DNA from: Chloroflexota bacterium | GTDB lineage: Bacteria; Chloroflexota; Limnocylindria; QHBO01 | NCBI GenBank assembly: GCA_005879775.1 | Contig: VBJX01000023.1 | Location: 1-32,037, forward strand | Direction of reading: 5' to 3' | Length of the DNA: 32,037 nt | Shown: positions 2,332 through 26,903 of the stretch, piece by piece | Layout: every line of letters begins with the position of its first letter | How positions within the stretch are numbered: position 1 is the first letter of the stretch | Made by a program: the position numbers and the translations under genes | Notes under the pieces: generated by a model | Seen by the model: only the letters and a program-made list of their open reading frames with translations | What the model was told of the DNA's origin: nothing | The model's database searches: none

Positions 2332-2724
2332 TCAGCGGTGGTTGTAGAGCTCCACCTGCCAGCGCCACTCGGTCCCGTCGGGAGCGTTCCACCAGGCGAT
2401 CAGGGTGCCCACCTCGCCACCGGGCAGGATCACCAGCGAGCCAAGGTCATCGGCGGTCGGCCAGCGGTCCTCGCGCACGATGCCACCGTCGGCGATCGAG
2501 AGGCGGGTCATCGGCAGGTAGGGACCCTCCCGCGTGGTCGATCCGCGCGCGACGAGCCTCTCGTCGAAGGTTCGCACCGTGACCTCAAGCTTCTTGGGGG
2601 CGCTGTGCACCCAGAGGAGATCGGTCGGGTCCAGGCGTCCGCGGGCGAAAGGCAGCCCGGTCGCGCCGCCACCCGGATACCACAGCTCCCAGGTCTGGAG
2701 CGGCTTGGGGTCGATCATCGGCAT
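2332..2724 (-). CDS. Hypothetical protein (130 aa)
   Basis: Only the C-terminal 130 codons of the 710-aa track ORF 2332..4464 look like real protein (MPMIDPKPLQTWELWYPGGGATGLPFARGRL...GTLIAWWNAPDGTEWRWQVELYNHR). The rest is antisense to the amidase gene. The start could be 2724 or 2718. Confidence 0.6.
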   Translation of the reverse strand: MPMIDPKPLQTWELWYPGGGATGLPFARGRLDPTDLLWVHSAPKKLEVTVRTFDERLVARGSTTREGPYLPMTRLSIADGGIVREDRWPTADDLGSLVILPGGEVGTLIAWWNAPDGTEWRWQVELYNHR

Positions 2725-2790
2725 CGGGTGGCCATGGTAGACGAACCCATCGCCATAGGTCCGGGCGGCGGTAGCCCGTACGGACCGCTG

Positions 2791-2809
2791 CCTCCGCGGG
2801 CCGCGGAGG
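2791..2809. promoter_or_regulatory. 19-bp GC-rich perfect palindrome in a divergent intergenic region
   Basis: CCTCCGCGG-G-CCGCGGAGG lies between the divergent hypothetical genes starting at 2724 (-) and 2860 (+). Confidence 0.3.
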
Positions 2810-2859
2810 GCTACCTTCACAGGGCTGATGACCTGGCACCAAAGGACAGAAGGGGACCG

Positions 2860-3228
2860 ATGACGCAGACAGTCGGAACGCGCGAATGGCGTCGGTACGG
2901 GTTCGGTGGACCGCCGGAGCCATGGGAGCACGGCGCCCAGCGCGACCTCGATCGGCTGGCGACCTCCTACTACCTCGAGATCATCGAGCTGCGCGGCGCG
3001 GCCCTGGCTGCGCATCTGGATGAGGAGCTGTGGCTGCGGATCGAGGAGCTGAGCACCACGGCCACCCGTCACAAGCACGAGATCGACTACACGCTGCGTC
3101 ACTGGGCGACCCCCGCCGAGCGCGCGCGACTCACCGATCGGCTCGGCTCCCTGATGCGAATCAGCCGCCGACTTCACTCCGTCGTGCACGGCTCGGATGA
3201 TCCGGAGCCGCAGCCCGAAGCCGCCTGA
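2860..3228 (+). CDS. Hypothetical helical protein (122 aa)
   Basis: Internal ATG 2860 of ORF 2338..3228 is preceded by GAAGGGGA. The sequence MTQTVGTREWRRYGFGG...LEIIELRGAALAAHLDEELWLRIEEL has protein-like composition. I recognised no family. Confidence 0.6.
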   Translation: MTQTVGTREWRRYGFGGPPEPWEHGAQRDLDRLATSYYLEIIELRGAALAAHLDEELWLRIEELSTTATRHKHEIDYTLRHWATPAERARLTDRLGSLMRISRRLHSVVHGSDDPEPQPEAA

Positions 3229-3279
3229 CCGTCGGGGCCCCTGCCGCAACCGGGCGGTGGCTGTAGGCTGCACAGGCCG

Positions 3280-5085
3280 ATGCGCCACCCGAGACTCGCC
3301 TATCTCCTGCCTGCCGGCCTCCTGATCGCCAGCCAGCTTCTCTCGCCGGAGCTCACAACGGCCCTCCCGACAGAGCTGCCGCCCAGCGCCGGCGGAGGGT
3401 CGATCCGCGTCGTCGCCCGCGACGTCGAGACCTCGGTCGAGCACGAACGTGTGGTCGCACTGCCGATGGCCGCCACGCACGTGGCCATCCACTGGCACGG
3501 CGCCCCCACCGCCACCCTGACGATTGCCTTTGGCAGCGCAGCGGGTCAGTTCGGGCCGGAGATGCCAGTCGAACTCGACGAGGACGGGCAGCAGCCGTCC
3601 GACGGAGACACCTTTGGCAGCGTGATGTGGGCCGCCGGAGCCAGGCTGGTGCGGGTCACCTCCGACCAGCCGATTGAACAGCTCACCGTTGAGGCGATCC
3701 AGAGCACCGGACCCGCCGCCAATGGAGACGGCGCCTCGATCGAGGCGGCCATGACGCAATCGCCCGTCATCACCCGGGCCCAGTGGGGAGCCGACGAGTC
3801 GTACCGTTTCGACGCCGCGGGGCACGAGCACTGGCCACCGAGCTTCAACCCGCTTCAGAAGTTCTTCATCCACCACACCGCCGGCCGCAACGGCGACCCG
3901 AATCCGGCGGCGACGGTGCGGGCCATCTACTACTACCACGCGATCACTCGGGGCTGGACGGACATCGGCTACAACTTCCTCATCGACGAAGCCGGCCACA
4001 TCTACGAGGGCCGCCACGCGCGCGACTACGCCCCCGGCGAAGTTCCGACCGAGGAGGACCTGGCTGGCAACGTGGTGCGGGCCGGCCACGTCAAGGACTT
4101 CAACGACGGGTCGATGGGGATCGCATTGCTCGGCACCTTCGAGACGCAGCAGCCCACTGCCGCGGCGCGCGCGGCGCTCCAGCGCCTGCTGGCGTGGGAA
4201 TCTGAACGCCACGGGATCGATCCGCAGGGCTACGGCCTGTACACCAATCCGGTGACGGGGCTGCAGAAGAGCCTGTGGAACATCTCCGGCCACCGCGACG
4301 GCCAGGCGACCTCCTGTCCGGGGGCGGCCTTCTACGCCACCCTGCCGGCCCTGCGCGACGCGGTCGCGGCGAAGATCGCCGCCGTCAGCGGCCCACTGGT
4401 TGACCACACCGCGCCGCACGTCTCTTCGTTGCTGCCGATGTCCCCCACGCCCACCGGCAGCCACACCATCAGCTTCGGCCTGATCTTCAGCGAGCCGGTG
4501 AGCGGGCTGACCAGGTCAGACTTCACCGTGTCGGGAACGTCGTCCGGCTGGAGCGTGGTGGGCGTCACTGGAGCCGGTGCCGTCTACGCCGTCGACCTCC
4601 AGGGGGTTCAGCCGACCATTGGCTCGGTCGTACTCAAGCTCGGGAGGAACAAGGTCACCGATCTGGCCGGGCTGCCGGGGCCCGGCACGGCGGCACAGGC
4701 GACCGCCACCTTTGCGGTGGATCATACCTCGCCATCGGTCGCGCTCTTCCCGACCATCAACCTGGCGGCAAGTCCCGCCTGGGTGGACGTGACGCTCACC
4801 TTCAACGAGCCAATCCGCGGCCTCTCGCCCCAGGACCTGGTGCTGGGCGGCTCCTCCAACACGGCCACGCCCTGGGCGATCAGCGCCGTGGCCGGCTCCG
4901 GGGCTCACTACGCCGTGACCATCACCCGCACCTCTCCGGCCACGGGGAAGCTGACCATCTACCTGCCGGCGGGCAGGGTGCAGGACCTTGCCGGCAACCC
5001 GAGCCTGAAGTCGAACACCCTCTCGATCGCCATCAGCGGCGGCAGCAGCGTGTTGACCTCATCCCATCTGCTGCTGCTTCTCTGA
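3280..5085 (+). CDS. Secreted N-acetylmuramoyl-L-alanine amidase (Amidase_2/PGRP domain) with two C-terminal Ig-like repeats
   Basis: Signal-like N-terminus MRHPRLAYLLPAGLLIASQLL. Amidase_2 signatures are present: FIHHTAG...ITRGWTDIGYNFLIDEAGHIYEGR...SMGIALLGTF...ISGHRDGQATSCPG. Two DHT(A/S)P...F(S/N)EP(V/I)...DLAGxP modules follow. Confidence 0.9.
   Translation: MRHPRLAYLLPAGLLIASQLLSPELTTALPTELPPSAGGGSIRVVARDVETSVEHERVVALPMAATHVAIHWHGAPTATLTIAFGSAAGQFGPEMPVELDEDGQQPSDGDTFGSVMWAAGARLVRVTSDQPIEQLTVEAIQSTGPAANGDGASIEAAMTQSPVITRAQWGADESYRFDAAGHEHWPPSFNPLQKFFIHHTAGRNGDPNPAATVRAIYYYHAITRGWTDIGYNFLIDEAGHIYEGRHARDYAPGEVPTEEDLAGNVVRAGHVKDFNDGSMGIALLGTFETQQPTAAARAALQRLLAWESERHGIDPQGYGLYTNPVTGLQKSLWNISGHRDGQATSCPGAAFYATLPALRDAVAAKIAAVSGPLVDHTAPHVSSLLPMSPTPTGSHTISFGLIFSEPVSGLTRSDFTVSGTSSGWSVVGVTGAGAVYAVDLQGVQPTIGSVVLKLGRNKVTDLAGLPGPGTAAQATATFAVDHTSPSVALFPTINLAASPAWVDVTLTFNEPIRGLSPQDLVLGGSSNTATPWAISAVAGSGAHYAVTITRTSPATGKLTIYLPAGRVQDLAGNPSLKSNTLSIAISGGSSVLTSSHLLLLL
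4402..5010 (+). repeat. Tandem duplication of a roughly 105-aa Ig-like (SbsA/Big_5-type) module inside the amidase gene
   Basis: Repeat 1 is DHTAPHVSS...FSEPVSGLTRSDFTV...YAVDL...VTDLAGLPG. Repeat 2 starts at 4720: DHTSPSVAL...FNEPIRGLSPQDLVL...YAVTI...VQDLAGNPS. Confidence 0.6.
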
Positions 5086-5097
5086 CCCGCCGGTACG

Positions 5098-6060
5098 GTG
5101 GGCACCGCGGCGCGCCTCGGCCTTGCCGGGATCGCCCAGCCGACGCCGCTCGAGGGTTCGCCACTCCTTGCCGCTGAGGGCGGCGTCGCCGAGGTCCGGC
5201 TGAAGTTGGAGATGCTCCAGCCAACGGGTGCCTTCAAGATCCGCGGCGCCCATAACAAGGTGGCGCTCGTCGCCGCACAGCAGCCCGATGCCGAGCTGGT
5301 CACCGCCAGCAGTGGCAACCACGGCATCGCGGTGGCCACCGCGGCTGCGCGCCACGCCATGCCGCTCACGGTCCTGGTCGGCGCATCGGTCTCGCCGTCC
5401 AAGCTGGAGCGCCTGCGGGCGCTCGAATCGGACCTGTGCGTGGTCGAGATCTTCGGACGAGACAGCGACGACGCCGAGGCGGAGGGCAGGCGGCGGGACA
5501 CCGCCGGGATGGCGGTCTACGTGGCTCCCTATAACGACGCCGACGTCGTCGCCGGGCAGGGGACGGTCGGGGTCGAGATCCTCGACGAATGGCCAGCCTG
5601 CGACGCCATCGTGGTGCCGATCGGCGGGGGCGGGCTCATCTCCGGCATCGGGCTATGGGCCAAGGCGGTGAATCCGAGCCTGCGCCTGGTCGGGGTCCAG
5701 CCATCGGCCTCCCCTCCGATGTATGCCTATTTCGAGTCGGGCTCGACCAAGCCGATGCCGATCGCACCCACCCTGGCCGATGGCGTGGCAGGCAACATCG
5801 AGCGCGACAGCATCACCTGGCGCATGTGCCGCCAGCTGGTCGATGAGGTGGTGGTCGTCGATGAGGGGCAGATCGCCGATGCCATGCGCTGGATCATCGA
5901 CGCGCATCACCTGGTGGTCGAGGCCTCGGCTGTCCTGGGGATTGCCGCGCTGCGCGCCCGGCTGGGCGGGCTGGCGGGTCGTCGCGCAGCCGTGGTCGTG
6001 ACGGGGCGAAACGTCGACGGCGCCACGCTGCGGTCGGTGCTGGAAGAGAGCGAAGGGTAG
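5098..6060 (+). CDS. PLP-dependent threonine/serine dehydratase family enzyme
   Basis: LKLEMLQPTGAFKIRGA contains the PLP lysine motif, and SSGNHG and GGGGLISG loops are present. GTG 5098 is the first possible start after the in-frame stop at 5083-5085. Confidence 0.85.
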   Translation: MGTAARLGLAGIAQPTPLEGSPLLAAEGGVAEVRLKLEMLQPTGAFKIRGAHNKVALVAAQQPDAELVTASSGNHGIAVATAAARHAMPLTVLVGASVSPSKLERLRALESDLCVVEIFGRDSDDAEAEGRRRDTAGMAVYVAPYNDADVVAGQGTVGVEILDEWPACDAIVVPIGGGGLISGIGLWAKAVNPSLRLVGVQPSASPPMYAYFESGSTKPMPIAPTLADGVAGNIERDSITWRMCRQLVDEVVVVDEGQIADAMRWIIDAHHLVVEASAVLGIAALRARLGGLAGRRAAVVVTGRNVDGATLRSVLEESEG

Positions 6061-23788: not shown

Positions 23789-24565
23789 ATGGAGCTCGCC
23801 GCGCGCTACCCGAACCTGCATGTCAGCCGCCACCCGCTGGTGCTGCACAAGCTCAGCCTGCTGCGCGATCGGACCACCGAGCCCAAGAAGTTCCGAGAGC
23901 TGGTGCGCGAGCTCTCGTGGCTGCTCGGCTACGAGGCGATGGCCGATCTGACCACCCAGCCGCTGGACGTCGAGACGCCGCTGGAAACGACTGCCGGAGC
24001 GGAGCTGGAGCCCAAGGTGGGCCTCGTGCCGGTCCTGCGCGCGGGGCTGGGCATGGTGGACGCCATGCTCGAGCTGATGCCATCGGCCGAGGTGTGGCAC
24101 ATCGGGCTCTACCGCGACGAGCGCACCCTCAAGCCGGTCGAGTACTACAACAAGCTGCCCGATGCCGCCACGGTGCAGGTCTGCCTCATCCTGGACCCGA
24201 TGCTGGCAACGGGCGGATCGAGCGCGGCGACCGTCGACATCCTCAAGCAGTGGGGCGCTGCCCGCATCAAGCAGGTGAGCCTGATCGCGGCGCCGGAAGG
24301 AGTGGCCACCCTCTCCTCCGCGCATCCCGACGTGGACATCCACGTCGGCGCCGTCGACCGGGCGCTGAACGAGCGCGGCTACATCGTTCCAGGGCTGGGT
24401 GACGCGGGGGACCGCCAGTTCGGCACATTCGCCGGGCCCGCCTCGGAACCCGGACATGCGATCGGCGATGAGGCGGCCGAGGTCGTGCGACGCCTGCAGC
24501 GCAGCCTGGCCGGAGAAGATCGTGGACAAAGCAGTGTCCCGAAGGAACCGCCGCCGGACCGTTGA
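23789..24565 (+). CDS. upp: Uracil phosphoribosyltransferase with a roughly 45-aa C-terminal extension
   Basis: [13 protein letters not shown]..., the PRPP loop [11 protein letters not shown], and [16 protein letters not shown] (the normal family C-terminus) are present. 45 more codons then precede the stop. Confidence 0.9.
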
Positions 24566-24591
24566 TGCAATCTCGGGTGCCGTTGGCTGCC

Positions 24592-24610
24592 CCTTCGGGA
24601 CGACCGAAGG
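24592..24610. terminator. Perfect 7-bp stem / 5-nt loop hairpin between convergent upp and the sORF
   Basis: CCTTCGG-GACGA-CCGAAGG lies 27 nt after the upp stop. It has no U-tract. Confidence 0.35.
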
Positions 24611-24674
24611 ATAGGCGCCGGGCCTCGGGGAGGGCAAGCCCACTTATCCCCGAAGTTCCAAGAAAGCCGGAGAG

Positions 24675-24710
24675 TTGTCCACAGCTCATCCCCGGATCGG
24701 CTGCGGACAA
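24675..24710 (-). terminator. Hairpin downstream of the sORF (11-bp stem, 14-nt loop)
   Basis: Minus-strand RNA: UUGUCCGCAGC-N14-GCUGUGGACAA, containing one G-U wobble. The same position is an A-C mismatch in a plus-strand transcript. The hairpin starts 24 nt after the sORF stop, and a U-rich stretch (CUUUCUU) begins 9 nt after the stem. Confidence 0.4.
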
Positions 24711-24733: not shown

Positions 24734-24784
24734 CTAGCAGCAGTCGCCGGGGCAGCAGTCGGGATCGCAACACCCTCGTGGCAT
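24734..24784 (-). CDS. Candidate 16-aa polycysteine peptide MPRGCCDPDCCPGDCC (metallothionein-like sORF)
   Basis: The minus strand reads AAGGAGGTGA (24800-24791), a 6-nt spacer, then ATG CCA CGA GGG TGT TGC GAT CCC GAC TGC TGC CCC GGC GAC TGC TGC TAG. A consensus TATAAT and a 22-bp palindrome lie just upstream and a hairpin lies downstream. The ORF is below the size cutoff of the supplied track. Confidence 0.55.
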   Translation of the reverse strand: MPRGCCDPDCCPGDCC

Positions 24785-24816
24785 TCGGTCTCACCTCCTT
24801 TCGTTTGGCAACACCG

Positions 24817-24840
24817 ATTATATTGACATACGTCAATATA
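24817..24840 (-). promoter_or_regulatory. Promoter/operator of the polycysteine sORF: consensus -10 TATAAT overlapped by a 22-bp palindrome
   Basis: On the minus strand, TATAAT is the complement of 24822-24817. The palindrome TATATTGAC-ATAC-GTCAATATA spans 24819-24840, with 9-bp perfect arms and 10 of 11 symmetric pairs. The 30 nt at 24811-24840 contain only 9 G/C. Confidence 0.5.
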
Positions 24841-24853
24841 GACACCCGACGAT

Positions 24854-24882
24854 AGAGCGGTCGATCAGAGATTAGCCGCTCT
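24854..24882 (-). terminator. Hairpin just downstream of the GT-C gene stop
   Basis: AGAGCGG-N15-CCGCTCT (7-bp stem) lies 24 nt after the stop at 24906 and upstream of the sORF promoter. It has a large loop and no U-tract. Confidence 0.3.
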
Positions 24883-24905
24883 GGCTACCCCGCTTCTAAT
24901 CGCCT

Positions 24906-26462
24906 TCAGCACGGCCCAGCAGGGGCAGTAGCGCGCTCGTTCGGCGGCAGGTGTGTCGGATTCTCCAGGTCATAAACCCACATGCGCGGCGTCTGACAGA
25001 GCAACGGAGCGCGTGGGTCCAGGAAGGCCCGGACCGTGTCCACCCCGCGAAGGTCCGCGGTCACGATGAAGTAGTGGATGCCATCTCGCATCGCCGCCGC
25101 GAGGCGTTGGTCATCCTCACCGTCGATGCCTTGGAGATGAGTGAATTCCCTGTCGCCTGACGTCGGCCATGGCGATACCAGCAGCCCGGAGTAGTACATC
25201 AACGGGAAGCTTTCGTTGTAGCTGTAACCGATCACCGGGTTGCCGCGCCCGAGCCTTTCCCCGATCGCTGCAAAGGTCGGAGCGTCTACCTCGTACGCGT
25301 CACTCGCAGGGAATACGTCGACGGGAACAGTCAGGTACGCGACAGGGCCGGTTGCGAGGAGCGCGGCAAACATCAGCGACGCGATGGCTGGATGCGAGGA
25401 GCGAAACGTCCGAACCGTGGCGCCTGCGAACGCCGCCAGCCCGATCGCGGCCAGGGCGAGAAGTGGCACCTGGTAGTAATCGTGGGTCATGGTGTGCCAC
25501 GTGAAAGCGAGTGACGTCACCAGATATCCCGCGAGGAACCCCGCGACCAGCCGCCAGAGCCTCGGGGTGAGCCAAATACCCACGGCGGCGAGCGGTAAGG
25601 CGGTCCAGCCGACGACGTGGACCACGTTGCGCGCCCAGCCAAGATAGTAGTCCGTCGTCAGCAGCAAGCTGGGGATGACCTTCGCGTGGACCTGCCCCTG
25701 CAGAAACAGGGTCCCGTAGGCAACGGCCGGCAGGGCGACCAGACCGATGAGCGCTGCAAGGCGCCAGCGGCGCTGGCGATCTGACCATATCGATCCGCGT
25801 TCACTGGCCGTGGCGACGACAACGCCGATGATCGGGAGAATGAGGGGTCCAGGCTTGACCAGGGCGGCCAGTCCTGCGAGGACGGCCATGACCAAGAGGT
25901 TCCGGCGGCTCGCGAGGACATCGTTGCGCACGCCGAACCAGGCGGTCGCCACGAGACCCAGCATGGCCAAGCTGTCTGACTGGAAGCTCCGGCTGACGGC
26001 GATTGCGAACGGCGCAAAAAGGAAGTACGCAAGGCCGACGGAAGCTTCCAGCGATCCGACAAGGCGACGGCAAACGTCCCAGAGCAGCGCGCCAGCCATC
26101 AGCCAGGCCAGCGAGGTGAAGATGGCCGACGTCCAGGGCCGCTCAACCCCGCCCGGGAAATACGTGAGCGCGGTCAGCGTCTGCAGGATCGGCGGTTCAA
26201 TAAAGCGTCCTGATCCGGCCTGCAACCAGACCCGCTGCCACTGAGCCAGTGCATCAGGGTGCAGCGCGAACCAGATGGTTCGGGCCGCGTTCGCGGAGTC
26301 ATACTCAAGGGTGGGTCGAAAGGTGTGGGTCCAATCGTGCAGGACGGACATCCGCAGCACCACCCACACGACGGACAGGCCAAGAGCGGCAAGCGCGCCG
26401 ATCGCAGGCGCCGAATTGATCCGGGCCGCGCGGCCGATTTCTTGGCCCCGCGTTATCCGCAT
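24906..26462 (-). CDS. Polytopic membrane protein, GT-C fold glycosyltransferase-like (family 39/83, ArnT/PMT_2-like), with a C-terminal soluble domain
   Basis: Internal ATG 26462 of ORF 24906..26765 has GGGAG 9 nt upstream. There are about 11-12 hydrophobic helices, an acidic first loop (TLEYDSANAA) and a roughly 120-aa hydrophilic C-terminal domain. The family call rests on architecture and composition rather than a strong motif. Confidence 0.65.
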   Translation of the reverse strand: MRITRGQEIGRAARINSAPAIGALAALGLSVVWVVLRMSVLHDWTHTFRPTLEYDSANAARTIWFALHPDALAQWQRVWLQAGSGRFIEPPILQTLTALTYFPGGVERPWTSAIFTSLAWLMAGALLWDVCRRLVGSLEASVGLAYFLFAPFAIAVSRSFQSDSLAMLGLVATAWFGVRNDVLASRRNLLVMAVLAGLAALVKPGPLILPIIGVVVATASERGSIWSDRQRRWRLAALIGLVALPAVAYGTLFLQGQVHAKVIPSLLLTTDYYLGWARNVVHVVGWTALPLAAVGIWLTPRLWRLVAGFLAGYLVTSLAFTWHTMTHDYYQVPLLALAAIGLAAFAGATVRTFRSSHPAIASLMFAALLATGPVAYLTVPVDVFPASDAYEVDAPTFAAIGERLGRGNPVIGYSYNESFPLMYYSGLLVSPWPTSGDREFTHLQGIDGEDDQRLAAAMRDGIHYFIVTADLRGVDTVRAFLDPRAPLLCQTPRMWVYDLENPTHLPPNERATAPAGPC

Positions 26463-26562
26463 GCTGCCCCACTCCCGCCTTCGAGATCGTGCGCGCCGAC
26501 GGCGCCAGTGTAGGGTTTCAGACGTCGGAGGCGCGCAGTGCGGAAAGCTGCCGGGCTCATCA

Positions 26563-26586
26563 TCTATAGAGACGGGTAGATATAGA
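26563..26586. promoter_or_regulatory. Imperfect inverted repeat in the arsR / GT-C divergent promoter region, related to the sORF palindrome
   Basis: TCTATAGAGAC-GG-GTAGATATAGA. The core half-sites TATAGAGAC and TATATCTAC (reverse complement of the right arm) each match TATATTGAC at 7 of 9 positions. The octamer ATATAGAC occurs at both loci (24836-24843 and 26580-26587). Confidence 0.4.
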
Positions 26587-26596
26587 CCTCGGCCGA

Positions 26597-26602
26597 TATA
26601 CT
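26597..26602 (+). promoter_or_regulatory. Candidate -10 (TATACT) for a leaderless arsR transcript
   Basis: TATACT is followed by 7 nt (CAGAGCG) and then ATG 26610. There is no purine-rich SD. Confidence 0.4.
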
Positions 26603-26609
26603 CAGAGCG

Positions 26610-26903
26610 ATGAAATCGAACGATCCCGACATCCTCCTCCTCTCCGCCCTGGCCGACCCCACCCGTCTGTCCATCGTGAGGCAGCTCGGCACCCAGCCCG
26701 GCGCCGTCTGCGCCTGCGACTTCACCGAGTGCTGCGCCGTCACCCAGCCGACGATCTCGCATCACCTGAAGGTCCTGCGTGACGCGGGGGTCCTCACCAG
26801 CCGGCGAGAGGGGACGAACATCTACTACGAGTTCGCGCCCGGCTTCGTCGAACGCTTCCGGGGGCTGGGGGCGAGCCTCACGGGGTTGGTCCAGCTGGCC
26901 TAG
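26610..26903 (+). CDS. ArsR/SmtB family metal(loid)-sensing transcriptional repressor
   Basis: 97 aa. It has LSALADPTRLSIVRQL, a CxCD sensing motif (AVCACDFTECC) and the recognition helix TQPTISHHLKVLRDAGVL. TATACT lies 7 nt upstream of the ATG and there is no SD, so the gene is a leaderless candidate. Confidence 0.9.
   Translation: MKSNDPDILLLSALADPTRLSIVRQLGTQPGAVCACDFTECCAVTQPTISHHLKVLRDAGVLTSRREGTNIYYEFAPGFVERFRGLGASLTGLVQLA

What the first reader, a model, noticed from the sequence alone, without database searches (positions are those of the whole stretch)
24817..24840. AT-rich 22-bp palindrome overlapping a consensus TATAAT directly upstream of the polycysteine sORF
TATATTGAC-ATAC-GTCAATATA (24819-24840) has 10 of 11 symmetric pairs. 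It sits in a 30-nt patch with only 9 G/C, in a genome where the core-gene line I counted was about 70% G+C. On the minus strand its proximal arm overlaps a perfect -10 hexamer TATAAT (complement of 24822-24817). That would place a transcription start about 25 nt before the sORF ATG, just upstream of the SD. ArsR/SmtB repressors classically bind AT-rich imperfect inverted repeats (12-2-12 type) that overlap the -10 or the start site of the genes they control. Repressor occlusion of this promoter is therefore the simplest reading. The -35 region is weak (GTGTCT), so the promoter may rely on the -10 alone.
Basis: partly seen in the sequence, partly recalled or inferred. Interest (0 to 1): 0.7.

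Follow-up and report, generated by a model that had tools for sequence, protein, structure and literature searches.

The report
ArsR operator guarding a polycysteine micro-gene
The AT-rich palindrome is very probably the DNA site where an arsenic-type ArsR repressor sits on the promoter of a 16-codon, cysteine-packed gene; the switch is an ordinary kind, but the tiny gene it controls may be an undescribed arsenic-binding peptide.

Summary
TATATTGAC-ATAC-GTCAATATA (24819-24840) is a 9-4-9 palindrome in the lowest-GC 30-mer of a 69% G+C window. On the minus strand it overlaps a TATAAT, upstream of an SD-led sORF (MPRGCCDPDCCPGDCC).

- The window comes from a Chloroflexota (Ca. Limnocylindria) genome.
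- All 47 orthologous arsR genes carry the same motif, ending about 9 nt before a leaderless arsR start.
- A weight matrix built only from other genomes scores the window palindrome at 36.9 bits. It finds just three further sites in 32 kb: one adjacent, and a pair at the window's own arsR promoter.
- In 13 Limnocylindria loci a polycysteine sORF lies next to arsR; in 11 it starts directly beside a double operator whose outer ATATs supply both -10 boxes, and in two a small ORF lies between them.
- The sORF-side site is present in 11/11 loci with the sORF and absent in 9/9 without it.

The window is a split version of this arrangement. A 1.7-kb glycosyltransferase gene sits inside the operator, and each promoter kept its own site. 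Of the 47 loci, 44 also carry arsM and/or arsC, so the regulator is arsenic-type.

Binding and the transcription start are inferred, not measured. The operator is a new member of a known kind. The peptide may be a new ars component.

The parts
24819..24840 (.). Operator site O1: 9-4-9 palindrome TATATTGAC-ATAC-GTCAATATA, the predicted high-affinity ArsR dimer site
   Evidence: Sequence. It scores 36.9 bits with a weight matrix built only from other genomes, whose training sites score 26-38 bits; the maximum in 50 shuffles of the window is 10.6. The arms are conserved and the spacer is free in the orthologues.
24835..24856 (.). Weakened second operator site, AATATAGAC-ACCC-GACGATAGA. It shares ATAT with O1, lies 16 bp out of register and covers the -35 region of the sORF promoter
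   Evidence: 19.2 bits. It aligns with the arsR-proximal site of intact double operators.
24817..24822 (-). -10 hexamer TATAAT of the sORF promoter; its first four bases are the outer ATA(T) of O1
   Evidence: The equivalent hexamer is TATGAT, TATAGT, TATCAT, TATTAT, TATGCT or TATAAT in orthologous loci.
24840..24845 (-). Weak -35 position, GTGTCT, 17 nt upstream of the -10
   Evidence: No -35 consensus is conserved at this position in the orthologues, from direct reading.
24791..24800 (-). Shine-Dalgarno sequence AAGGAGGTGA
   Evidence: It is conserved in front of every orthologous sORF.
24734..24784 (-). Polycysteine sORF encoding MPRGCCDPDCCPGDCC*
   Evidence: Orthologues have in-frame length changes and all end in Cys, 12 of 15 in CC-stop. 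There are three synonymous changes against one non-synonymous change in the Cys core relative to L197.
24675..24710 (-). Hairpin 24 nt after the sORF stop; a possible terminator, followed by CUCUCCGGCUUUCUU
   Evidence: Inverted repeat. The fold is -24.5 kcal/mol with z = -2.3.
24906..26462 (-). PMT_2-family membrane glycosyltransferase gene lying between the two operator copies
   Evidence: Pfam PF13231, E = 1e-9. It is absent from all related loci except the 99.8%-identical strain L125. The insert is bounded by ATATAGAC at 24836-24843 and 26580-26587.
26563..26584 (.). Weakened copy of the sORF-side site at the arsR promoter, TCTATAGAG-ACGG-GTAGATATA
   Evidence: 15.8 bits; alignment.
26579..26600 (.). 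arsR-proximal operator site, GATATAGAC-CTCG-GCCGATATA
   Evidence: 21.6 bits. It holds the same position, ending about 9 nt before the start codon, as in most of the 47 orthologues.
26597..26602 (+). -10 hexamer TATACT of arsR, 7 nt before the ATG, which implies a leaderless mRNA
   Evidence: the arrangement is conserved.
26610..26903 (+). arsR: a 97-aa ArsR/SmtB-family repressor with four cysteines in helix alpha-3 (CACDFTECC)

Best explanation
The palindrome is the main operator of the local arsenic-type ArsR repressor, placed on the promoter of the polycysteine sORF.

Proposed mechanism (inferred):
- Without inducer, an ArsR dimer occupies TATATTGAC-N4-GTCAATATA.
- A second dimer may occupy the weaker overlapping site 16 bp upstream.
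- Together they cover the -10 (TATAAT) and the -35 region and keep RNA polymerase off.
- When a thiophilic metalloid, most likely As(III), binds the four-cysteine cluster in helix alpha-3, ArsR leaves the DNA.
- A short SD-led mRNA starting near 24810 is then made and translated into the 16-residue peptide.
- The same protein represses its own leaderless gene through the sister site at 26579-26600.

Ancestrally the two promoters were back to back inside one 38-bp double operator. In this strain a glycosyltransferase gene was inserted into that operator. Each promoter kept the site that overlaps its own -10, while the other site decayed.

Shown: the motif, its conservation, its positions, its co-occurrence with the sORF, and the arsenic gene context.
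Inferred: protein binding, the inducer, the transcription start, and what the peptide does.
For: 1. Motif learned elsewhere. A symmetrised weight matrix from 20 arsR-upstream sites of other genomes gives exactly four hits of at least 12 bits in the 32-kb window. They are 24819 (36.9), 24835 (19.2), 26563 (15.8) and 26579 (21.6). The maximum in shuffles is 10.6.
2. Link to arsR. All 47 Limnocylindria arsR orthologues carry the motif overlapping a TATAnT -10. It ends about 9 nt before the start codon in most, and 9-18 nt in all. Related motifs lie within about 2 kb of, or next to, ArsR genes in Actinomycetota that share the recognition helix QPT[IV]SHHLKVLR.
3. Link to the sORF. Polycysteine sORFs lie next to arsR in 13 Limnocylindria loci and in one Gaiellaceae and one Acidobacteriota locus.
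4. Site tracks sORF. The sORF-side site scores 25-35 bits in 11/11 loci with the sORF. It scores -31 to 15 bits in 9/9 loci without it. By my arithmetic, Fisher's exact p is about 6e-6, ignoring phylogenetic relatedness.
5. Footprint-like conservation. The arms carry 1.6-1.7 bits per position and the four central bases 0.1-0.2 bits. Against L197 (ArsR 92.8% identical) the arms differ at 1 of 18 positions and the spacer at 4 of 4.
6. -10 overlap. The overlap with TATnnT recurs in 9 of the 11 loci, and an SD follows in all.
7. Arsenic type. Of the 47 loci, 44 have arsM and/or arsC adjacent. ArsM scores above the NCBIfam cut-off (289 against 263).
8. Precedent for the geometry. The ArsR-family protein Rv2034 footprints an 8-4-8 palindrome over its own promoter (PMC3338718).
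Against: - No binding, expression or start-site data exist for this uncultured lineage.
- arsR lies 1.77 kb away with a gene in between. Here, adjacency supports the link only through comparison with other genomes.
- Clade-1 and clade-2 ArsR operators are nearly the same, so a paralogous ArsR elsewhere in the genome could be the real or an additional binder.
- No recognisable -35 is present.
- The sORF might also be read through from the glycosyltransferase gene, because no convincing terminator separates them.
- The related loci are phylogenetically related, so the counts overstate independence.
- The inducer is inferred only from gene neighbourhood. The window itself has no arsM or arsC.
Confidence: 0.8

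Rival explanations
1. The palindrome is an operator, but for a different protein. This could be a paralogous ArsR encoded elsewhere in the genome (for example the 109-124-aa clade that pairs with arsM) or an unrelated regulator.
For: The clade-2 operator consensus is almost identical to clade 1, and a clade-2 matrix scores the window site at 33.7 bits. Only 32 kb of the genome is visible.
Against: The motif is tied to clade-1 arsR starts at a fixed distance in 20 of 20 loci. The window's own arsR promoter keeps a copy. In the closest relative, L197, the sORF and this arsR share one operator. No other regulator gene is conserved next to the motif.
Confidence: 0.1
2. The palindrome is a functionless relic: a copy of the arsR autoregulatory region left next to the sORF when the glycosyltransferase gene was inserted.
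For: The locus has clearly been rearranged, and both operator copies contain a decayed half.
Against: The decay is selective. The site overlapping the sORF -10 is perfect (36.9 bits, at the top of the family range), while its neighbour has dropped to 19 bits. The mirror image holds at arsR. In unrearranged loci the sORF-side site exists only when the sORF does.
Confidence: 0.05
3. The palindrome acts as an RNA hairpin. It would be either a terminator for the upstream glycosyltransferase mRNA or a 5' structure of the sORF mRNA.
For: It lies 65 nt after the glycosyltransferase stop codon, and a 9-bp stem can form (-9.7 kcal/mol, z = -2.3).
Against: The stem is A/U-rich and weak, and no U tract follows. 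Identical motifs occur where no upstream gene exists and on both sides of divergent promoters. The pattern of conserved arms with a free spacer and no compensatory changes is that of a protein site.
Confidence: 0.03
4. The sORF is not a peptide gene but a cysteine-sensing leader like those in mycobacteria, and the palindrome merely belongs to its promoter.
For: Polycysteine sORFs that attenuate downstream cysteine genes are known (bioRxiv 10.1101/834739). In L014, L017 and L018 genes follow on the same strand, as chrA does in L004, L010 and L013.
Against: - The sORF has a strong SD and is not leaderless.
- In the window, L001, L011, L197 and L122 it faces a convergent gene and is followed by a hairpin, so nothing lies downstream to attenuate.
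- The neighbours are arsenic genes, not cysteine genes.
- This rival concerns the sORF's role. It would not change the operator reading.
Confidence: 0.07

Closest known systems
smtB-smtA operator-promoter of Synechococcus PCC 7942 (SmtB repressor with a divergent metallothionein gene)
   Same: An ArsR/SmtB repressor gene is divergent from a small cysteine-rich metal-binding gene. Two inverted repeats in a short intergenic region cover both promoters, and derepression is driven by the ligand. This rests on established knowledge; a related case is AzuR/NmtA (PMC8790569).
   Different: - The repeats here are 9-4-9 and overlap by 4 bp, rather than separate 12-2-12 sites.
- The controlled product is 13-25 residues, against 56.
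- The gene context is arsenic (arsM, arsC), not zinc.
- In the window the pair has been split by an inserted gene.
Rv2034 (ArsR family, M. tuberculosis) autoregulatory site
   Same: It is a 20-bp 8-4-8 palindrome footprinted from -30 to +3 of the regulator's own promoter, and binding is strongest with both arms and the 4-bp spacer (PMC3338718).
   Different: The half-site is unrelated (CCGTAAGT against ATATTGAC). Rv2034 is not a metal(loid) sensor of the CxC type, and no tandem overlapping second site was described.
As(III)-responsive ArsR repressors: R773 type 1, AfArsR type 2, CgArsR type 3, ArArsR (PMC11868830)
   Same: The window protein is a small homodimeric winged-helix repressor controlling ars genes. 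It has a CxC in helix alpha-3, as in the R773 type 1 site. The closest solved relatives include CgArsR 6j0e and AfArsR 6j05.
   Different: - The window protein has CAC plus a vicinal CC five or six residues later. R773 has C32, C34 and C37 (alignment from my memory of the R773 sequence).
- It scores below the cut-off of the R773-type NCBIfam model (54 against 97).
- It has no N- or C-terminal cysteine site.
Mycobacterial polycysteine leaderless sORFs (Cys 'ribulon')
   Same: They are very short ORFs dominated by Cys codons and missed by annotation (10.1101/834739).
   Different: Those are leaderless, sit upstream of cysteine-metabolism operons and act by ribosome stalling. This one has a strong SD, is under an ArsR operator, lies among arsenic genes and is often a stand-alone gene.

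Membership tests
ArsR/SmtB-family operator | AT-rich dyad-symmetric site of about 20-26 bp | tested here: met
   The site is 22 bp with 9-nt perfect arms. The geometry is 9-4-9, like Rv2034's 8-4-8, not the classical 12-2-12.
ArsR/SmtB-family operator | Same motif at the regulator's own promoter (autoregulation) | tested here: met
   A site at 26579-26600 overlaps the arsR -10. The same holds at 47 of 47 orthologues.
ArsR/SmtB-family operator | Overlaps the -10, -35 or start site of the controlled promoter | tested here: inconclusive
   It overlaps a consensus TATAAT, and the overlap is conserved. The promoter is predicted only; no mapped start site exists.
ArsR/SmtB-family operator | Co-occurrence of the site with the regulated gene across genomes | tested here: met
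   The sORF-side site is present in 11/11 loci with the sORF and absent in 9/9 without it. It is also present in the independent metagenome loci L197 and L122.
ArsR/SmtB-family operator | Bound by the ArsR dimer and released by the inducer | not testable with these tools
   This needs EMSA or footprinting with and without As(III), Sb(III), Cd and similar ligands.
As(III)-sensing ArsR (sensu stricto) | Three-cysteine As(III) site | tested here: inconclusive
   Four Cys in alpha-3 (CAC[DE]F[TS]xCC) are conserved in 47 orthologues and in the window protein. The positions differ from the described types, and binding was not tested.
As(III)-sensing ArsR (sensu stricto) | Genomic linkage to ars genes | tested here: met
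   arsM and/or arsC lie adjacent in 44 of 47 orthologous loci. Neither is in the window itself.
Bacterial metallothionein (SmtA/BmtA, MymT) | Sequence membership of the sORF product in a described metallothionein family | tested here: not met
   Eight orthologous peptides of 20-32 aa give no Pfam or NCBIfam hit at E up to 10. The window peptide is too short to scan.
Cysteine-responsive polycysteine leader sORF | Leaderless, and followed in the operon by cysteine-metabolism genes whose RBS it controls | tested here: not met
   A strong SD is present. A convergent gene and a hairpin lie downstream in the window and four relatives. The neighbours are arsenic genes.

The most novel reading that the evidence does not exclude
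The operator reveals an undescribed member of the ars regulon: a gene-encoded, ArsR-controlled polycysteine micropeptide of 13-25 residues, usually ending in CC. It would sequester or hand over As(III) inside the cell, as a bacterial counterpart of eukaryotic chelation by phytochelatins or metallothioneins.

Support:
- It is conserved next to arsR in at least 13 Limnocylindria loci and in single Gaiellaceae and Acidobacteriota loci.
- The same CCDPDCC module occurs fused to the N- or C-terminus of ArsM. It also occurs in a second sORF family downstream of arsC.
- Reviews state that chelation of As(III) is a eukaryotic strategy (PMC11868830). They also state that no sequestration gene is known in ars operons (PMC12093948).
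Probability: 0.4. Interest if true: 0.75.

Novelty: new member of a known kind. Interest (0 to 1): 0.5.

Why it matters
- It gives a testable operator consensus, TATATyGAy-N4-rTCrATATA, often in 16-bp overlapping pairs. This applies to an ArsR clade that runs the arsenic methylation and reduction genes of Limnocylindria, an abundant and uncultured soil and freshwater Chloroflexota class. The consensus allows regulon prediction in MAGs.
- It shows an unusually compact design: two divergent promoters whose -10 boxes are the outer arms of a 38-bp double operator.
- The window is a natural dissection of that design. After a gene was inserted, each promoter kept only the site over its own -10.
- The operator flags the polycysteine micro-ORF as a regulated gene rather than noise. 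That opens the question of whether bacteria encode arsenic-chelating micropeptides.

Tried and rejected
It returned mostly chance matches inside unrelated genes. Only L125, L197 and L122, plus a few ars-linked contigs, were useful.
Pfam and NCBIfam scans of the longer orthologous peptides found nothing.
3. A literature search for the literal half-site strings together with ArsR gave only noise. I found no paper describing this operator or ars-linked polycysteine sORFs. The library covers open-access papers only.
4. A search for arsC or arsM remnants in the window found none.
5. The terminator reading of the palindrome was rejected: the hairpin is weak and has no U tract.
6. A MerR-type reading, using TTGACA inside the palindrome as a -35, was rejected. 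No -10 lies at 17-20 bp on either strand, from direct reading.
7. DnaA-box-like repeats at 24675-24710 are not enriched (7 against 3.4 expected), and there is no GC-skew switch.
8. Rfam finds nothing around the element, even at E up to 5.

Full report
**1. Observation**

The stretch 24819-24840 reads TATATTGAC-ATAC-GTCAATATA. Its two 9-nt arms are perfectly complementary, which is 10 of 11 pairs when read as 11+11.

The pattern occurs once in the window. It occurs in none of 100 dinucleotide shuffles, even with three mismatches allowed. The surrounding 30-mers hold 9 G/C and are the lowest-GC 30-mers of a window that is 69.1% G+C.

Palindromes as such are not rare here: ten perfect 9-nt-arm palindromes against 3.3 expected. 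This is the only AT-rich one.

On the minus strand the order of elements is as follows:
- GTGTCT at 24845..24840
- a 17-nt spacer
- TATAAT at 24822..24817
- 16 nt
- AAGGAGGTGA at 24800..24791
- ATG at 24784
- MPRGCCDPDCCPGDCC, with the stop codon at 24736..24734

**2. Surroundings**

| Feature | Coordinates | Strand | Evidence |
|---|---|---|---|
| ArsR-family protein, 97 aa, the only one in the window | 26610-26903 | + | |
| PMT_2-family membrane glycosyltransferase | 26462..24906 | - | |
| upp, converging on the sORF | 23789-24565 | + | |

The glycosyltransferase gene lies between arsR and the palindrome. The rest of the neighbourhood is housekeeping: asparaginase II, bactofilin, malate dehydrogenase and citrate synthase.

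**3. Related loci**

A genome scan with the ArsR protein returned 80 loci. The 47 best are all Chloroflexota of the class Candidatus Limnocylindria, with 50-73% ArsR identity.

All of these proteins share the four-cysteine alpha-3 motif CAC[DE]F[TS]xCC and the recognition helix QPT[IV]SHHLKVLR. They fall into two groups:
- a short clade of 95-107 aa (L001-L020, together with the window protein)
- a longer clade of 109-124 aa (L021-L047)

**4. The motif belongs to arsR**

Upstream of every one of the 47 genes lies TATATTGAC-N4-GTCGATATA or a close variant. In most it ends about 9 nt before the start codon, and 9-18 nt in all. Its last bases form a TATAnT -10, so arsR is leaderless.

I built a symmetrised weight matrix from 20 such sites, none of them from the window. 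Information is 1.6-1.7 bits per arm position and 0.1-0.2 bits in the four central positions.

| Window position | Score (bits) | Location |
|---|---|---|
| 24819 | 36.9 | sORF promoter |
| 24835 | 19.2 | sORF promoter, adjacent |
| 26563 | 15.8 | arsR promoter |
| 26579 | 21.6 | arsR promoter |

These are the only hits of at least 12 bits in 32 kb. The training sites score 26-38 bits, and the best score in 50 shuffles of the window is 10.6.

So the motif marks exactly two places in the window: the sORF promoter and the arsR promoter. At each place there is a pair of sites 16 bp out of register.

Related sites lie within about 2 kb of, or directly next to, ArsR genes of Actinomycetota and other phyla that share the recognition helix.

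**5. The motif also belongs to the sORF**

A scan for short Cys-rich ORFs found a polycysteine sORF within about 1.3 kb of arsR in 15 of the 80 loci. Only two such ORFs occurred elsewhere in about 830 kb. Two further metagenome contigs, L197 and L122, add to the set.

In L001, L002, L010, L011, L014 and L017-L020 the sORF is directly divergent from arsR. The 60-110-bp intergenic region contains ATATyGAy-N4-GTCAATAT-nGAy-N4-rnCGATAT-ACT. This is two 8-4-8 palindromes sharing the central ATAT.

The outer ATAT on the sORF side continues into TATGAT, TATAGT, TATCAT, TATTAT or TATGCT. A GGAGG-type Shine-Dalgarno sequence follows 11-42 nt later in the nine directly divergent loci. The outer ATAT on the arsR side gives TATACT.

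The sORF-side site is specific to loci with a divergent sORF:
- At the position 16 bp upstream of the arsR-proximal site, the matrix scores 25-35.5 bits in 11/11 short-clade loci that have the sORF.
- It scores -31 to 15 bits in 9/9 short-clade loci that do not.

By my arithmetic, Fisher's exact p is about 6e-6, but the loci are phylogenetically related.

**6. The window is a split version of the same unit**

- L001 is collinear with the window at 78% nucleotide identity on both sides. There the sORF and arsR are 62 bp apart, GTG to ATG.
- L197, whose ArsR is 92.8% identical, has MQRSCCDPDCCPGACC directly divergent from arsR. It has a double operator, the same TATAAT, and no glycosyltransferase gene.
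- The two homology blocks of L197 meet at the 8-bp ATATAGAC. This sequence is present at both window junctions (24836-24843 and 26580-26587) and brackets a 1,736-bp insert.
- The glycosyltransferase gene occurs only in the window and in L125, a 99.8%-identical strain.

Each window junction aligns with a whole double operator, but the decay is selective:
- Next to the sORF, the site over the sORF -10 is perfect, and the arsR-side site has dropped to 19 bits. Its former TATACT now reads TAGAGC.
- Next to arsR, the site over the arsR -10 is kept, and the sORF-side site has dropped to 16 bits.

This is what selection for promoter occlusion predicts. It argues against the palindrome being a mere relic.

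I cannot tell whether the operator was duplicated at insertion or whether the insert arrived by recombination between two operator-bearing regions.

**7. Which ligand**

In 44 of the 47 loci, arsM and/or an LMW-PTP arsC lies next to arsR. arsM is immediately downstream of arsR in the short clade and divergent from it in the long clade. In the long clade the arsR-arsM intergenic region again carries a double operator in most loci.

The identifications rest on these scores:

| Protein | NCBIfam model | Score | Cut-off |
|---|---|---|---|
| ArsM | NF008823 | 289 and 283 | 263 |
| ArsC | thioredoxin-type arsenate reductase (best hit) | 129 | 174 (below cut-off) |

The regulator is therefore an arsenic-type ArsR. 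Its cysteine pattern differs from the described As(III) sites (PMC11868830), and the R773-type model is not reached (54 against 97). The window itself has no arsM or arsC. The sORF, and possibly the glycosyltransferase gene, are the only local targets.

**8. The sORF is probably translated**

- A strong SD at the right distance is conserved in front of the nine directly divergent sORFs and the window's.
- Lengths vary in frame from 13 to about 25 codons, and every peptide ends in Cys, most in CC-stop.
- Between the window and L197, the Cys core shows three synonymous changes and one non-synonymous change.
- In the window, L001, L011, L197 and L122 the sORF faces a convergent gene. In the window it is followed by a -24.5 kcal/mol hairpin. 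It is therefore a stand-alone gene there, not a leader.
- No protein family matches the peptides.

The CCDPDCC module also occurs at the N- or C-terminus of ArsM proteins. It occurs as well in a second sORF family, MLTTLPYDSELRCCDPECCDPDCCDSDCC, downstream of arsC in unrelated metagenome contigs. Vicinal cysteine pairs are the As(III) ligands of ArsD (my own knowledge).

An As(III)-binding role is therefore plausible but untested.

**9. Mechanism**

The best-supported model is classical ArsR/SmtB repression, at about 0.8 confidence for the operator role.
- A dimer on the 9-4-9 palindrome, perhaps with a second on the overlapping weaker site, occludes the -10 and -35 of the sORF promoter.
- Metalloid binding to the alpha-3 cysteines releases the repressor.

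The closest described architecture is smtB-smtA. The closest described site geometry is the 8-4-8 palindrome of Rv2034.

The rivals are a paralogous or unrelated binder, a relic, an RNA hairpin or terminator, and a cysteine-attenuator leader. Their evidence is listed in the separate rival-explanations section of this report.

**10. Verdict**

- the geometry is 9-4-9, not 12-2-12
- the operator has two sites
- the regulator is arsenic-type
- the 1.8-kb separation from arsR results from a gene insertion

The operator is a new member of a known kind. The more novel lead is the regulated polycysteine micro-gene.

Noticed in passing
window 24525-24690 (also L197:1004-1179, L122:2258-2431, L001:5217-5347, L011:5201-5318): A non-coding-looking block between upp and the sORF is much better conserved than the flanking genes. 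A 66-nt stretch, GTCCCGAAGGGGCAGCCAACGGCACCCGAGATTGCATCAACGG.CCGGCGGCGGTTCCTTCGGGAC, is nearly invariant in five genomes. RNAalifold favours the minus strand (-46.5 against -35.2 kcal/mol), with G-U-compatible changes and four compensatory pairs. Rfam gives no hit even at E up to 5. In L001 and L011 arsC separates the block from the sORF, so it is an independent element and a candidate unannotated structured RNA. Only five sequences are available, so the evidence is weak.
   Followed up: partly
window 24844-26579, with ATATAGAC at 24836-24843 and 26580-26587: The PMT_2 glycosyltransferase gene is a lineage-specific 1.7-kb insertion into the arsR-sORF double operator. It is flanked by an 8-bp direct repeat and by a decayed operator half on each side. 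It is absent from L197 (ArsR 92.8% identical), L001, L011 and L122. Whether it is now ArsR-regulated is unknown.
   Followed up: yes
L129, L143, L179, L187, L093 (ArsM termini); L163:2753-2833, L164:6439-6999, L185:617-1177: The CCDPDCC motif of the sORF also occurs in the N-terminal or C-terminal tail of ArsM proteins. It is also found in a second polycysteine sORF family, (M)LTTLP[FY]DSEL.CCDP.CC..DCC, encoded downstream of arsC in high-GC metagenome contigs that lack this operator motif.
   Followed up: partly
window 26597-26612 and the same position in L001-L047: arsR appears to be leaderless. In the short clade TATACT, TATAAT or TATAGT lies 6-10 nt before the ATG or GTG; in the long clade the hexamer is more degenerate (TACAGT, TACCAT). 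No Shine-Dalgarno sequence is present.
   Followed up: partly
window 23789-24565: The upp ORF is 258 aa, but the UPRTase domain ends at residue 213. The 45-residue tail overlaps the conserved block described above, so the annotated stop may be fortuitous.
   Followed up: no
L004:3520-3760 and L013:4776-5038: In two loci a further small ORF lies between the double operator and the polycysteine sORF. It reads MDLTTELLVASHQADLRRAARARR... in L004 and MNLLTEMLASAREADMQREARARR... in L013. In these loci the sORF has no palindrome of its own and is presumably co-transcribed.
   Followed up: no
L014, L017, L018 (about 2700-5800); also L004, L010, L013: In three loci the ArsR-controlled sORF is followed on the same strand by DUF47/PhoU-like and PiT phosphate-transporter genes, then chrA in L017 and L018. 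In L004, L010 and L013 chrA follows directly. This is a possible arsenate/phosphate link.
   Followed up: no
window 24675-24710: There is an inverted pair of DnaA-box-like 9-mers: TTGTCCACA, and TTGTCCGCA on the other strand. They also form the hairpin after the sORF. Such boxes are not enriched in the window (7 against 3.4 expected), and no GC-skew switch is present.
   Followed up: partly
L080:2649-2741: A Mycobacterium locus carries an ORF ending in CCCCCCSC about 3.3 kb from its arsR homologue. It may be one of the mycobacterial cysteine-attenuator sORFs rather than a relative of the element studied here.
   Followed up: no
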